From sequence record KT184313.1: DNA of 64,000 nt, one strand, 5' to 3'. The notes below the pieces were generated by a model. The model saw only the letters and a list, made by a program, of their open reading frames with translations. It ran no database searches and was not told the DNA's origin. Origin of the DNA: Enterobacteria phage KhF1. The position numbers were made by a program, and so were the translations under genes. Below, piece after piece: positions 44,900-55,450 of this stretch (the stretch's first letter is position 1; each line of letters starts with the position of its first letter).

Positions 44900-52921
<8,022 letters not shown>

Positions 52922-52922
<1 letters not shown>

Positions 52923-53161
52923 TACATTTTTCCTGCTCTTCTAAGTTCGTTGTAAGCAATTTCCTCTTTATACGACCTCTGAATCTCAAGAAATTGTCTC
53001 AATGATAATAAATCAGAGAATGTCATAGCAAAGAGTTGGTCAAGTGTTTCTTTACACCCTTCCATACCATAAATAGCAAGCACAAATTTCATCTCGTCTG
53101 CTTCTTCATAGGTTGCCTCTACAGCAGCATCAGTTAGTGGTGTCTGTAGAGTGTTACCCAT
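52922..53161 (-). CDS. Tail assembly chaperone, T portion (frameshift extension)
   Basis: In -1 frame relative to upstream chaperone gene; that frame is open across the upstream stop. Confidence 0.45.
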
Positions 53162-53163
53162 GT

Positions 53164-53562
53164 TTACTGAGAAGTTAGGCTTTTGAAAATGCTTGCTTCG
53201 AAAAAACTTCCGAAGTTTGCCTCCAGCGCAAATGCTAAGTAATCAATAAACTCACCGTAGTTTGCTTGGAAGTACGTATCAATATTAAGTGGGAAGTCGT
53301 CAACAGTTGCCCCTTGAAATAATAAGGTAGCCATCTCTTCAAGGTTAATTTCTTCAATTCTGTCAAAACAAGCTTCAACAAGCTCTTTAAATGGAACCAT
53401 TGGAGCTTCCTTCTTACCCTTGTCAGTCAGACTTGATAGCATCTGTGCAAAGGTTGGAACAACAATTTTACCCAACTTCATAGACATCTTAATACCATCT
53501 CTTGCCCCAAGCAGAACGATATTTACTTTCTTACCATTAATTACTCTAGATTCTGTTTTCAT
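53164..53562 (-). CDS. Tail assembly chaperone (gpG-like)
   Basis: 132 aa between tube and tape measure; slippery heptamer T-TTT-TTC 13 codons before stop. Confidence 0.5.
   Translation of the reverse strand: MKTESRVINGKKVNIVLLGARDGIKMSMKLGKIVVPTFAQMLSSLTDKGKKEAPMVPFKELVEACFDRIEEINLEEMATLLFQGATVDDFPLNIDTYFQANYGEFIDYLAFALEANFGSFFEASIFKSLTSQ
53200..53206 (-). other. Candidate -1 programmed ribosomal frameshift slippery site (UUUUUUC)
   Basis: X-XXY-YYZ heptamer in zero frame of chaperone gene; -1 frame continues into downstream ORF. Confidence 0.45.
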
Positions 53563-53587
53563 TGTGATTCCTTAATACTTTTAAAAG

Positions 53588-53623
53588 AAACAAAAAAGGG
53601 GAAGACCTTTTAAAGTCTCCCCC
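53588..53623 (-). terminator. Intrinsic terminator downstream of tail tube gene
   Basis: Imperfect hairpin GGGGAAGAC/GTCTCCCCC followed by T-run on minus strand. Confidence 0.45.
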
Positions 53624-53635
53624 TTATAGGATTTA

Positions 53636-54082
53636 TTAAACACTTGACGCTGGAATTGTAGAAGTGTAGTCTAGCTTCTCACAACCAAAAATCCAAGTTT
53701 TAGAGTTCTGGTCACGACCAAGTTCAATCTGTGGTAATTCCTGCAACCAAGCATTAATACCAGTTGCCAGAACAGAGCCTGATGGGTCGTAGATTACGAA
53801 GTTAGAAGAGATATCTTCTTCAAGTTCCATATTGTCTTGTTTAGCTTGAATTGCAGAAAGCATCTGGTTAGAGAGAGAAGTCTGCATTAACTCAATCTCA
53901 ATAGTACCTGTCTTGTCTGCATTTCTTGTCAGAGCAACCTGACCACCTGCACCAACAACTGGTGTCACAAGTGGTGATGTTCTCTGTAGACGCAAGAATG
54001 AGTCTGGGGCAAAGCCTTCAATGGCAATACCATTCCAGCTACATACAACGTCTTTAGGGGAATATTGCTGATACATAGCCAT
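53636..54082 (-). CDS. Tail tube protein
   Basis: 148 aa directly downstream of sheath gene. Confidence 0.5.
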   Translation of the reverse strand: MAMYQQYSPKDVVCSWNGIAIEGFAPDSFLRLQRTSPLVTPVVGAGGQVALTRNADKTGTIEIELMQTSLSNQMLSAIQAKQDNMELEEDISSNFVIYDPSGSVLATGINAWLQELPQIELGRDQNSKTWIFGCEKLDYTSTIPASSV

Positions 54083-54097
54083 TCCAATTTACCTCTA

Positions 54098-55450
54098 TTA
54101 TTCGTAAGCCACTGTACCTTTCAAGTCAACAGCCAAGATAGCCCCTGCTAAGATACCTGCGAAGGTAACGTCTTTCAGGATACGTGCTTTCTTGTCTGCC
54201 AAAGCAACTTGAGAGGCTTTAGGAACATTAACTGTGTAAGATGACAGGAAGTTTCTGTTGACTGCTCTTTGCAGAGAGGTTTCAATGACTTGACGAATAC
54301 GGGTAATACCAGTATCATCATAAGTAATCTTACCACCCTTCTGGTTAATTAGCAAGTCTCTCAGAGAAGTTTTCAGGTCTGATTCTAACCAGTCAACACC
54401 ACGGACGATATCAATCCATTCCCCACCAGAAGTAATCCCTCTACGAACCACTGGAACACCACCATCAAGGTCAATAAAGTTACAGTGACGTACATCTAAA
54501 GCAGACTTCTGAATACTTGTCAGAGGTCTCTGATTAGATGGTTGTAGAGAAGCTGCTACGCCAGTTAGCTGAGCATTACCCCAAGCAATTGAGCCTGCAT
54601 CATATGGAGCACCATAAGCAATGTATGCCATCTCTGGATAATCTTCTGCTGCTGCGTGATGCCACAAGCAAACTGTACGAGTGTACATATTCTTAGCAAG
54701 CTGTGCTGGAACATCATTTGCACTGGCTAATTCTGTACCTTGTAGGGCTGTTACATCGGAGTTAGCCGTAAAGAAGATTTTCTTACGAGCCTGAATCTCA
54801 GAAGCCATTGCTAAGACAAACTGTTGCGTTCTGTCTTCTGCTGCAATGAAATACCAGTCAGTAGAGTAAGCTTCGATAGCTGCCAGAGCAGTTGCTGCTG
54901 TATCGGCAGTTGTACTTGCAATATATACAGTCTGTGCTGTGGTTGTTACTTTCACAAAGTCATTATCACCAGCTTTGGTAATAATCATTGTGGCAGAGCC
55001 ATTGCTACCAGTTACATTCACAGAAACCTTATCTTTGATTGTTGGGTCAGCTTCAATCTGTGTTTTAAACTGTTGCAACACTACCTCAGCAGTGTCTGAA
55101 TCTTGTGCTGTGTACTGGTATGGTTGAGAAATTCCACCGCCAGCAGCTACAGTAATTGAGTAGTCTGTACTTTCGGTAACGGCATCAGGAATTGATACAG
55201 TGTACTGCATAGCACGTCTACCAATATAAAGCTGAGTTACTTTAGGAGTCTGACTCCAAAGTTGTTTAGCAGCCTTATATGCAGCAGAGTTTTCATCGAA
55301 ATCTTCAGCAACTTCAGTTAAGGAAGTGTAACCACGTACTCTTTCTTCAAAATTATCTGTTGAAGCTAAGAATAGTGGCAAACCAAAACCTTCTCTTGTA
55401 GTTCCTGCGGTGTTCAATGTAATATCTACATTAACAATTGGATTCCACAT
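54098..55450 (-). CDS. Contractile tail sheath protein
   Basis: 450 aa, upstream of tube/chaperone/tape measure. Confidence 0.55.
   Translation of the reverse strand: MWNPIVNVDITLNTAGTTREGFGLPLFLASTDNFEERVRGYTSLTEVAEDFDENSAAYKAAKQLWSQTPKVTQLYIGRRAMQYTVSIPDAVTESTDYSITVAAGGGISQPYQYTAQDSDTAEVVLQQFKTQIEADPTIKDKVSVNVTGSNGSATMIITKAGDNDFVKVTTTAQTVYIASTTADTAATALAAIEAYSTDWYFIAAEDRTQQFVLAMASEIQARKKIFFTANSDVTALQGTELASANDVPAQLAKNMYTRTVCLWHHAAAEDYPEMAYIAYGAPYDAGSIAWGNAQLTGVAASLQPSNQRPLTSIQKSALDVRHCNFIDLDGGVPVVRRGITSGGEWIDIVRGVDWLESDLKTSLRDLLINQKGGKITYDDTGITRIRQVIETSLQRAVNRNFLSSYTVNVPKASQVALADKKARILKDVTFAGILAGAILAVDLKGTVAYE

What the first reader, a model, noticed from the sequence alone, without database searches (positions are those of the whole stretch)
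53164..53562. Tail assembly chaperone with a canonical -1 frameshift slippery site (U UUU UUC)
Thirteen codons before the stop of the 132-aa gene between tube and tape measure, the zero frame reads AGT TTT TTC, giving the X-XXY-YYZ heptamer T-TTT-TTC at 53206-53200. The -1 frame is open from there into the downstream 79-aa ORF (52922-53161). This is the G/GT arrangement of tailed phages and predicts a fusion protein of about 200 aa.
Basis: partly seen in the sequence, partly recalled or inferred. Interest (0 to 1): 0.4.

Follow-up and report, generated by a model that had tools for sequence, protein, structure and literature searches.

The report
Phage tail chaperone frameshift site

Summary
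On the minus strand, a 132-aa tail assembly chaperone gene (53562-53164) lies between the tube and tape-measure genes. It carries an in-frame T_TTT_TTC (53206-53200), and the -1 frame runs open from there to 52922, predicting a 213-aa fusion.

The window is a Felixounavirus. The main evidence:
- All 80 related IMG/VR loci (21 clusters at ≤60 % identity, 35-66 % GC) keep T_TTT_TT[C/T] in the same register. The joint codon-usage null probability is about 1e-18.6.
- In every complete locus the -1 frame stays open for 76-123 codons, encodes a conserved domain and ends near the start of a long downstream ORF (the tape-measure gene in annotated relatives).
- The window's own ATG for the 79-aa ORF has no Shine-Dalgarno sequence, is ATA in one congener, and is absent in most lineages.
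- Synonymous diversity falls about ten-fold between the slip site and the G stop.
- A GGAGG lies 13 nt upstream and is conserved (P ≈ 8e-5). No downstream structure was found.

The same heptamer is already annotated as ribosomal slippage in the sister genus Mooglevirus and published. All six Felixounavirus records inspected list two separate genes. No experimental proof was found for this phage group.

Verdict: interpretation supported, already known, low interest.

The parts
53164..53562 (-). Tail assembly chaperone gene ('G' equivalent), 132 aa, zero-frame product
   Evidence: ORF list. Pfam PF21822 Phage_TAC_15 E = 1.7e-19, 71 bits against a cut-off of 22. phrog_1613 and phrog_3840 'tail assembly chaperone'. 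The start has an AAGGA Shine-Dalgarno 6 nt upstream.
53200..53206 (-). Slippery heptamer T_TTT_TTC (U_UUU_UUC) in X_XXY_YYZ register; codons 120-121 (Phe-Phe) plus the last base of Ser119
   Evidence: Register verified. Identical in 74 of 80 related loci and T_TTT_TTT in the other 6. Null P about 1e-18.6 over 21 clusters. Zero nucleotide diversity in 33 unique Ounavirinae sequences. H_HH.U_UU.Y is listed among the most efficient -1 motifs in E. coli (PMC4066793).
53220..53224 (-). GGAGG Shine-Dalgarno-like element 13 nt upstream of the heptamer; candidate 5' stimulator
   Evidence: Read from the sequence. GAGG or GGAGG at exactly 13 nt in 17 of 21 clusters. GAG rather than GAA at the invariant Glu in 17 of 21 against 8.5 expected, P = 7.7e-5; in the Felix cluster GAG before a G-starting codon is otherwise 7 %. 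SD-like sequences 6-17 nt upstream are the experimentally supported stimulatory range (PMC4066793). Function here is inferred.
53162..53200 (-). 13-codon linker read in the -1 frame after the slip (RSKHFQKPNFSVN); it overlaps the last 11 codons and the stop of the zero-frame gene
   Evidence: Translation. G-frame third-position diversity is 0.022 here against 0.235 in the single-coding part of G, and T-frame third-position diversity is 0.000. It is the only stretch still matching Erwinia phages at DNA level (window 53217-53177). phrog_3840 aligns through it (fusion residues 1-151, 162.8 bits, against 147 bits for the zero-frame product).
52922..53161 (-). 'T' segment: the 79-aa ORF as usually annotated; C-terminal domain of the predicted 213-aa fusion
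   Evidence: phrog_4963 'tail assembly chaperone' E = 2.8e-55. Conserved motif L.EL...W..DD...A...LD across 21 clusters, always in the -1 frame. No Shine-Dalgarno before its ATG. The ATG is ATA in L019, shifted in Mooglevirus and absent in Kolesnikvirus and most distant clusters.
50691..52922 (-). Tape measure protein gene; its ATG overlaps the T-frame stop (TAATG)
   Evidence: Pfam TMP_3 and phrog_4036. In 20 of 21 cluster representatives the -1 ORF stops within -29 to +64 nt of the start of a long downstream ORF.
53636..54082 (-). Tail tube protein gene (context)
   Evidence: PDB 9mt4_P 'Tube protein' E = 2.9e-96 and 9c39_G.
54098..55450 (-). Tail sheath protein gene (context)
   Evidence: phrog_205 'tail sheath' E = 2.4e-122. 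PDB 9mt4_Q E = 5.9e-291.
53596..53625 (-). Intrinsic-terminator-like hairpin plus T-tail between the tube and chaperone genes (context)
   Evidence: 13-bp stem with 6 GC pairs and a T-rich tail. Annotated as a Rho-independent terminator in XTG1, wV8 and Michonne.

Best explanation

Most ribosomes translate 53562-53164 and release a 132-aa chaperone. A minority slip while tRNA-Phe occupies both the P site (UUU) and the A site (UUC). They move back one base on U_UUU_UUC (53206-53200), re-pair on UUU_UUU, and continue in the -1 frame through a 13-codon linker and the '79-aa ORF' to the stop at 52922. That yields a 213-aa fusion.

The likely stimulator is pairing of the 16S rRNA 3' end with the GGAGG 13 nt upstream, not a downstream structure.

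By analogy with lambda gpG/gpGT, the shared N-terminal domain would coat the tape measure protein, and the rare C-terminal T domain would recruit tube subunits. This fixes a high G:GT ratio from one mRNA, and neither protein ends up in the virion.

Shown here: the sequence anatomy, family membership, conservation, and selection on both frames. Inferred: the slip itself, its frequency, the role of the GGAGG, and the binding partners.
For: Anatomy and register. Chaperone family membership. Tube, sheath and tape-measure context.

Conservation of the heptamer:
- It is present in the same register in Felixounavirus, Suspvirus, Mooglevirus, Kolesnikvirus, Pectobacterium phage Arno162 and the rV5-like phages CR3 and Av-05.
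- It is present in 80 of 80 IMG/VR loci forming 21 clusters with GC from 35 to 66 %.
- The null probability is about 1e-18.6, although Phe-TTT is only 21-33 % and Ser/Cys NNT only 13-21 % in the GC-rich clusters.

Frame architecture:
- The -1 frame is open for 76-123 codons after the slip in every complete locus. The +1 control frame is mostly short.
- The -1 product is a conserved domain that ends near the start of a long downstream ORF in 20 of 21 representatives.

The T-segment ATG is dispensable:
- ATA in the Felixounavirus locus L019.
- Displaced in Mooglevirus.
- No early Met in Kolesnikvirus or in most distant clusters.
- No Shine-Dalgarno sequence in the window.

Synonymous-site suppression: diversity is 0.235 across single-coding G, 0 at the heptamer and 0.022 from the slip to the G stop.

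Other support:
- phrog_3840 aligns better to the fusion than to the zero-frame product.
- The CL1 record, with T7, encodes exactly the predicted fusion as one ORF.
- The upstream GAGG is enriched, P = 7.7e-5.
- The motif class is efficient in E. coli (PMC4066793).
- The orthologous site is annotated as ribosomal slippage in Moogle and Michonne and reported in print.
- The lambda precedent and its 30:1 ratio are described in PMC5009743.
Against: - I found no protein-level or reporter evidence for any Felix O1-like phage. The Bas63 virion paper and the PhageMaP preprint say nothing about it.
- There is no stem-loop or pseudoknot at 5-9 nt downstream in this lineage (z -0.5 to +0.6), and there is no Rfam match.
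- This genome does have an ATG 2 nt after the G stop, so some free T protein could be made by reinitiation.
- The GGAGG is missing in 4 of 21 clusters, including Kolesnikvirus and CR3. Its codons also encode a conserved Leu-Glu-Ala.
- A T6 run could in principle also give the same product through RNA-polymerase slippage.
- The 21 clusters are not strictly independent, so the joint P value is an approximation.
Confidence: 0.85

Rival explanations
1. The same 213-aa fusion is made, but mainly by RNA polymerase slippage. The polymerase would add one extra U on the T6 run, possibly helped by the small nascent hairpin (53226-53210) that abuts the run in a terminator-like geometry. Standard translation of the U7 mRNA would then give S-F-F-R…, which is identical to the product of ribosomal frameshifting.
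For: - The terminator scan flags CTGGAG-GCAAA-CTTCGG followed by AAGTTTTTTC.
- The hairpin folds at -6.5 kcal/mol and ends 3 nt before the run.
- Hairpin-stimulated slippage on short runs is documented for Roseiflexus IS630 (PMC5009743).
- Record CL1 carries T7 at this site, which shows the run is length-unstable at some level.
- Six clusters naturally have T7-T8 runs.
Against: - Efficient slippage is described for runs of about nine A/T. T5C5 shows none without a strong GC hairpin. Here the run is T6 and the hairpin is weak, with two G·U pairs.
- The hairpin is not conserved across clusters (mean z -0.24). It appears only where the Leu-Glu…Phe-Gly codons happen to allow it.
- What is conserved is the X_XXY_YYZ register, including the third base of the preceding Ser/Cys codon.
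Confidence: 0.07
2. There is no recoding. The heptamer merely encodes a conserved Phe-Phe. The 79-aa ORF is an independent gene translated from its own ATG at 53161 by termination-reinitiation after the chaperone's TAA 2 nt upstream. This is how most Felixounavirus records annotate it.
For: - ATG lies 2 nt after the G stop in the window and in most congeners.
- All six Felixounavirus records inspected annotate two separate CDSs.
- Phe-Phe is invariant at protein level.
- In a single genome, the chance of such a heptamer in the overlap is about 0.09.
Against: - Codon choice at Ser/Cys-Phe-Phe is fixed against the codon bias of 21 lineages.
- The ATG is ATA in L019, displaced in Mooglevirus, and absent in Kolesnikvirus and most distant clusters. 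There the first Met lies 28-76 codons in, inside or beyond the conserved domain.
- No Shine-Dalgarno sequence precedes the ATG.
- The 36 nt before the G stop, upstream of the ATG, show a ten-fold loss of synonymous variation. A single-coding region would not show this.
- In rV5-like phages the -1 frame is open across about 125 codons, spanning the gap to the small annotated ORF.
Confidence: 0.04

Closest known systems
Tape measure chaperone with annotated ribosomal slippage in Mooglevirus phages Moogle, Michonne and Mijalis (Ounavirinae)
   Same: Orthologous genes: 75 % chaperone protein identity to Moogle, about 70 % for the fusion and about 80 % at DNA level. They share the same T_TTT_TTC in the same register, the same GGAGG 13 nt upstream, and the same order tube - chaperone - (-1) T - tape measure. 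It is reported in PMC4319497 and PMC5543628.
   Different: Only detail differs. The Moogle zero-frame product is 133 aa and ends 3 codons later. The first ATG in its T frame lies 5 codons further downstream. The window's genus (Felixounavirus) is annotated as two separate genes in every record inspected.
Phage lambda gpG/gpGT tail assembly chaperones (Levin 1993; Xu, Hendrix and Duda 2004, 2013, 2014; summarised in PMC5009743)
   Same: Two overlapping ORFs lie between the major tail (tube) gene and the tape-measure gene. [quoted passage not shown] The rare fusion carries an extra C-terminal domain, and neither product is in the virion (for lambda). No downstream structure is evident here. I recall the same being reported for lambda, but this is from my own knowledge and was not checked.
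   Different: - Lambda slips on G_GGA_AAG (own knowledge); here the heptamer is U_UUU_UUC.
- No sequence similarity to lambda G or T was tested or seen. The Pfam family is Phage_TAC_15, not the lambda one.
- The host phage is a contractile-tailed myovirus.
- A conserved upstream SD-like element is present here.
Phage P2 gpE/gpE+E' (myovirus tail chaperone frameshift; Christie et al. 2002; recalled from my own knowledge, not checked here)
   Same: A contractile-tail phage with a -1 frameshift on a T-rich run in the small gene preceding the tape-measure gene.
   Different: The protein families differ as far as tested, since no P2-type family appeared in the Pfam or PHROGs hits.
E. coli dnaX tau/gamma -1 frameshift
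   Same: It shares the use of an internal Shine-Dalgarno-like sequence at a fixed short distance upstream of the slippery heptamer as stimulator. The stimulatory range of 6-17 nt is given in PMC4066793.
   Different: dnaX slips on A_AAA_AAG, also has a strong downstream stem-loop, and produces a truncated rather than an extended product (own knowledge). No downstream structure is present here.

Membership tests
G/GT-type frameshifted tail assembly chaperone of long-tailed phages | The gene pair lies between the major tail or tube gene and the tape measure gene | tested here: met
   Tube 53636-54082 (PDB 9mt4_P, E = 2.9e-96). Tape measure 50691-52922 (Pfam TMP_3, phrog_4036). The chaperone pair lies between them.
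G/GT-type frameshifted tail assembly chaperone of long-tailed phages | [quoted passage not shown] | tested here: met
   T_TTT_TTC at codons 119-121 of 132. Present in 80 of 80 related loci forming 21 clusters, null P about 1e-18.6.
G/GT-type frameshifted tail assembly chaperone of long-tailed phages | The second ORF is in the shifted frame, is open from the slip site, and does not depend on its own initiation signals | tested here: met
   The -1 frame is open from 53245 to 52922. No Shine-Dalgarno sequence precedes the ATG. The ATG is lost in L019 and absent in most lineages. Alternative GTG or TTG starts in distant clusters were not examined.
G/GT-type frameshifted tail assembly chaperone of long-tailed phages | Both reading frames are under selection in the overlap | tested here: met
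   Third-position diversity is 0.022 (G frame) and 0.000 (T frame) between the slip and the G stop, against 0.235 and 0.141 in the single-coding parts.
G/GT-type frameshifted tail assembly chaperone of long-tailed phages | The fusion protein is actually produced at a low fixed ratio and is required for tail assembly | not testable with these tools
   No proteomic or reporter data were found for Felix O1-like phages.
G/GT-type frameshifted tail assembly chaperone of long-tailed phages | The G domain binds the tape measure protein, the T domain binds the tube protein, and both are absent from virions | not testable with these tools
   There is only indirect support. No chain in the PDB matches the chaperone or the fusion, while the tube and sheath of close relatives are solved.
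Pfam PF21822 Phage_TAC_15 (tail assembly chaperone) | The score is above the curated gathering threshold over most of the model | tested here: met
   71 bits against a cut-off of 22, covering model positions 1-124 of 127.
dnaX-like SD-stimulated -1 frameshift signal | An SD-like sequence lies within the stimulatory distance upstream of the heptamer and is conserved beyond coding needs | tested here: met
   GGAGG at 53224-53220 with a 13-nt spacer. GAG rather than GAA in 17 of 21 clusters, P = 7.7e-5. The stimulatory range of 6-17 nt comes from PMC4066793. The stimulation itself was not tested.
dnaX-like SD-stimulated -1 frameshift signal | A downstream stem-loop lies 5-9 nt after the heptamer | tested here: not met
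   The fold of the downstream 89 nt gives z = -0.54, with no hairpin at the right spacing. The Felix cluster gives z = +0.59. Some GC-rich clusters do have such a hairpin.
Hairpin-stimulated transcriptional slippage (Roseiflexus IS630 type) | A stable nascent-RNA hairpin lies immediately 5' of the slippage run and is conserved in relatives | tested here: not met
   A weak hairpin is present in the window (-6.5 kcal/mol, z = -0.94). It is not conserved over 21 clusters (mean z -0.24).

The most novel reading that the evidence does not exclude
The fusion might be produced partly or mainly by RNA-polymerase slippage rather than by the ribosome. The slippage would occur on the T6 run and be promoted by the terminator-like nascent hairpin (53226-53210) that abuts it. 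That would make this a phage structural-gene example of hairpin-stimulated transcriptional recoding. The T7 allele in the CL1 record would then be a DNA-level echo of the same slipperiness.

A milder and more probable novelty concerns the whole Phage_TAC_15 family, from 35 % to 66 % GC phages. It appears to use a fixed module of SD-like GAGG, a 13-nt spacer and U_UUU_UUY. Downstream structure is optional and lineage-specific.
Probability: 0.07. Interest if true: 0.4.

Novelty: already known. Interest (0 to 1): 0.15.

Why it matters
The practical value is for annotation. All six Felixounavirus GenBank and RefSeq records inspected list two independent small genes: finno, SeKF_63, XTG1, wV8, BPS15S6 and JLBYU32. 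Kolesnikvirus records either truncate the second part or omit it. The evidence says all of these should carry one chaperone CDS plus one ribosomal-slippage CDS, as the Mooglevirus records do.

Felix O1-like phages are widely used for Salmonella and E. coli typing and biocontrol, and they are being engineered. Anyone who recodes, deletes or refactors this region must preserve the heptamer, the upstream GGAGG and the dual-coding linker.

The family-wide survey also gives a clean natural dataset for studying how -1 signals are maintained against codon bias. One heptamer is held in 21 lineages across a 31-point GC range, with an SD-like element at a fixed 13-nt spacing.

It does not change what is known about how tails are built.

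Tried and rejected
- **Downstream stimulatory structure.** I folded 89 nt after the heptamer in seven lineages and 57 nt in 21 cluster representatives. The Felix O1-like cluster has nothing at 5-9 nt spacing. The only solid hairpin in the window lies about 48 nt downstream, too far for a canonical stimulator.
- **Rfam, permissive threshold, 52800-53700.** Only sub-threshold noise.
- **Upstream hairpin plus T-run as a terminator or slippage element.** It is present in the window but not conserved, so I rejected it as a family feature.
- **Chance heptamer encoding a conserved Phe-Phe.** Rejected by the codon-usage test.
- **Independent translation of the 79-aa ORF as the sole route.** Rejected on the ATG loss and the synonymous suppression.
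- **Solved structure of a chaperone homologue.** None found.
- **Experimental evidence in the literature.** Xu et al. 2004 is not held. The PhageMaP Bas63 essentiality preprint and the Bas63 cryo-EM paper do not discuss these genes. The PRFect paper gives no Felix O1-specific information.
- **Not run.** I judged the large protein-database searches and structure prediction unnecessary for the question. The Pfam and PHROGs hits were decisive for family membership.

Full report
**What is in the sequence.** On the minus strand the window carries, in order:
- a 450-aa tail sheath gene (55450-54098);
- a 148-aa tube gene (54082-53636);
- an intrinsic-terminator-like hairpin (53625-53596);
- a 132-aa ORF (53562-53164);
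- a 79-aa ORF (53161-52922);
- a 743-aa tape measure gene (52922-50691).

The 132-aa ORF reads …GGA AGT TTT TTC GAA…. T_TTT_TTC therefore occupies 53206-53200 exactly in the X_XXY_YYZ register, with Ser119-Phe120-Phe121, and TTT is 13 codons before the stop. The -1 frame is open from 53245. After a slip it reads RSKHFQKPNFSVN and then runs straight into the ATG of the 79-aa ORF, giving a 213-aa fusion (121 + 92 residues).

**Identity of the genes.**
- The window is a Felix O1-like myovirus, genus Felixounavirus. The region is 96-100 % identical to roughly 200 sequenced phages of E. coli, Salmonella and Shigella.
- The 132-aa protein is a tail assembly chaperone. It matches Pfam Phage_TAC_15 at 71 bits against a cut-off of 22, and phrog_1613 at 2.9e-48.
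- The 79-aa ORF matches phrog_4963, also labelled tail assembly chaperone.
- The tube and sheath match solved virion chains of close relatives: 9mt4_P 'Tube protein' at E = 2.9e-96, and 9mt4_Q at E = 5.9e-291.
- The 743-aa protein is a tape measure protein.
- No solved chain matches the chaperone or the fusion. That fits a non-virion assembly factor.

**Is it more than chance?** Within this one genome the case is only suggestive. In-frame X_XXY_YYZ heptamers occur at 0.35 % of codons in the window's ORFs of at least 100 aa, so about 0.09 are expected in the 27-codon stretch where a -1 slip would produce a fusion. This is, however, the only in-frame TTTTTTC among those ORFs.

The comparative evidence is decisive.
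- Seven lineages carry the same heptamer in the same register: Felixounavirus, Suspvirus, Mooglevirus, Kolesnikvirus, Pectobacterium phage Arno162, and the rV5-like Vequintavirinae phages CR3 and Av-05. The last two share only 27-29 % chaperone identity with the window.
- An alignment-driven scan of IMG/VR returned 80 loci. That scan selects on the peptide E[AVK]N[FY][GS][SC]FF, so Phe-Phe is present by construction, but codon choice is not.
- All 80 loci have T_TTT_TTC (74) or T_TTT_TTT (6). In all 79 complete loci the -1 frame is open for 76-123 further codons. The +1 control frame is mostly short.
- The loci fall into 21 clusters at about 60 % identity or less, with GC from 35 to 66 %. I used each locus's own frequencies of Phe-TTT and of T-ending Ser/Cys codons. 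In the GC-rich clusters these fall to 21-33 % and 13-21 %. The joint probability of all 21 clusters carrying the heptamer is about 1e-18.6. This treats clusters as independent, which is an approximation, although synonymous sites should be saturated at that divergence.

**Is the -1 segment really read through from the slip site?** Five observations say so.
1. The -1 product is a conserved domain (motif L.EL…W..DD…A…LD) in all 21 clusters. In 20 of 21 representatives its stop lies within -29 to +64 nt of the start of a long downstream ORF, which is where the tape-measure gene sits in annotated relatives. One locus has no such ORF in the DNA held.
2. The window's ATG at 53161 has no Shine-Dalgarno sequence and is not conserved. 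It is ATA in the Felixounavirus locus L019 and lies five codons further on in Mooglevirus. It is missing in Kolesnikvirus and most distant clusters, where the first Met is 28-76 codons in.
3. Among 33 unique Ounavirinae sequences, G-frame third-position diversity behaves as follows. It is 0.235 in the single-coding part of the chaperone gene, 0.12 in the overlap upstream of the slip, 0 at the heptamer, and 0.022 in the 36 nt from the slip to the G stop. T-frame third positions are 0.000 in that last stretch and 0.141 in the T segment proper. If the 79-aa ORF were read only from its ATG, those 36 nt would be single-coding and should vary like the rest of the gene.
4. The only stretch that still matches Erwinia phages at the DNA level is window 53217-53177, that is, the heptamer plus the following 23 nt.
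5. phrog_3840 aligns further and better to the fusion (residues 1-151, 162.8 bits) than to the zero-frame product (147 bits).

The GenBank record of phage CL1 adds an illustration. It has T7 instead of T6 and therefore encodes, as one ORF, exactly the predicted 213-aa product.

**Mechanism.** I found no stimulatory structure at the canonical 5-9 nt spacing in this lineage. Folding z-scores are -0.5 to +0.6 and Rfam is silent. Several GC-rich clusters do have a strong hairpin just downstream (z about -3.7 to -3.9), so 3' stimulators appear to be lineage-specific.

What is conserved is an upstream Shine-Dalgarno-like element.
- GGAGG lies at 53224-53220, 13 nt before the heptamer.
- GAGG or GGAGG occurs at exactly that spacing in 17 of 21 clusters.
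- At the invariant Glu codon, GAG is used 17 times against 8.5 expected from local usage (Poisson-binomial P = 7.7e-5). In the Felix cluster, GAG before a G-starting codon is otherwise used only 7 % of the time.

Sharma et al. 2014 (PMC4066793) support both parts of this signal.
- They rank U_UU.C as the second most shift-prone A-site tetramer in E. coli.
- They list H_HH.U_UU.Y among the most efficient heptamers.
- They treat SD-like sequences 6-17 nt upstream as the experimentally supported stimulatory range.

The most likely mechanism is therefore tandem slippage of two tRNA-Phe from UUU_UUC to U_UUU_UU, assisted by rRNA pairing with the upstream GGAGG. That step is inferred, not shown.

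**Rivals.**
- *RNA-polymerase slippage on the T6 run.* This would give an identical protein. The terminator scan flagged a small hairpin (53226-53210) abutting the run, which resembles hairpin-stimulated slippage. However, the hairpin is weak and not conserved (mean z -0.24 over 21 clusters). Efficient slippage is described for runs of about nine, and T5C5 gives none without a strong hairpin (PMC5009743). The conserved feature is the ribosomal register, including the third base of the preceding codon. I give this rival about 7 %.
- *No recoding, with the 79-aa ORF translated only by reinitiation.* The ATG loss and the synonymous suppression contradict this. I give it about 4 %. Some free T protein made in addition to the fusion cannot be excluded.

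**Comparison with what is known.** This is the G/GT arrangement first shown in lambda, where the G:GT ratio is about 30:1 and neither product is in the virion (PMC5009743). It is known to be widespread in long-tailed phages (Xu, Hendrix and Duda 2004, as cited).

[quoted passage not shown] The Moogle and Michonne records carry a two-piece CDS at the same TTTTTTC, and Michonne's is noted 'ribosomal slippage'.

Other records are less complete.
- Six Felixounavirus records annotate two separate CDSs: finno, SeKF_63, XTG1, RefSeq wV8, BPS15S6 and JLBYU32.
- Among Kolesnikvirus records, Roscha1 leaves the T segment unannotated and phiEa104 annotates only a 37-aa fragment.

I found no experimental demonstration of the fusion in this phage group.

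**Verdict.** It is a textbook kind of recoding, already annotated at the orthologous site in a sister genus, and it sits in a genome region nearly identical to many sequenced phages. I classify it as already known, with low interest (0.15).

The modest additions from this work are:
- the family-wide conservation statistics;
- the conserved SD-like element at a fixed 13-nt spacing;
- the absence of a 3' structure in this lineage;
- the evidence that the genus-wide two-gene annotation should be corrected.

Noticed in passing
L008 657-663 (Escherichia phage CL1, OK040806.1): The slippery run is T7 instead of T6, so the record encodes the whole 213-aa fusion as a single in-frame 'tape measure chaperone' and has no separate 132-aa product. 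This is either a homopolymer sequencing error or a real length variant of the run. If real, the phage would make almost only the fusion.
   Followed up: partly
window 53596-53625 (minus strand): A strong intrinsic-terminator-like hairpin (13-bp stem, T-rich tail) lies between the tube gene and the chaperone gene. It is annotated as a Rho-independent terminator in XTG1, wV8 and Michonne. It would lower transcription of the chaperone and tape-measure genes relative to sheath and tube, adding a second layer of stoichiometry control upstream of the frameshift.
   Followed up: partly
L019 (IMG/VR Felixounavirus contig 3300045988_004167), codon equivalent to window 53161-53159: The ATG that starts the annotated 79-aa ORF is ATA (…VNIGNTLQ…) in this otherwise near-identical genome. 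The independent ORF therefore has no start codon there.
   Followed up: yes
window ~53116-53151 (minus strand), and the equivalent positions in L004 (Moogle) and L012 (PC79-13): A hairpin lies about 48 nt downstream of the heptamer, inside the T segment (CTACAG…CTGTAG). It is much stronger in Moogle and PC79-13 (CCCCG…CGGGG against CCCCA…TGGGG). That difference is a compensatory pair of synonymous changes. It is too far away for a canonical frameshift stimulator, and its purpose is unknown.
   Followed up: partly
L073, L074, L082 and other GC-rich IMG/VR clusters, 3-45 nt after the heptamer: Several GC-rich relatives have a stable hairpin starting a few nucleotides after the heptamer (z about -3.7 to -3.9 against shuffles). 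The AT-rich Felix O1-like cluster has none. The 3' stimulators of this conserved frameshift therefore seem to be lineage-specific.
   Followed up: partly
window 52922 (TAATG), and the T-stop to long-ORF junctions in the 21 cluster representatives: The stop of the -1 (T) frame overlaps the tape measure ATG by one base here. In most related clusters it lies within about 5 nt of, or overlaps, the start of the long downstream ORF. That suggests translational coupling between the frameshifted reading frame and the tape measure gene.
   Followed up: no
L015 731-844 (phiEa104, NC_015292.1); L006 970-1205 (Roscha1); L007 381-782 (SFPB); record LR699048.1: Annotation problems appear in relatives. phiEa104 annotates only a 37-aa fragment of the T segment. 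Roscha1 leaves the T segment unannotated. SFPB names the chaperone 'tape measure protein'. VpaE1_ev035 labels this region with head-closure, neck and sheath names.
   Followed up: no
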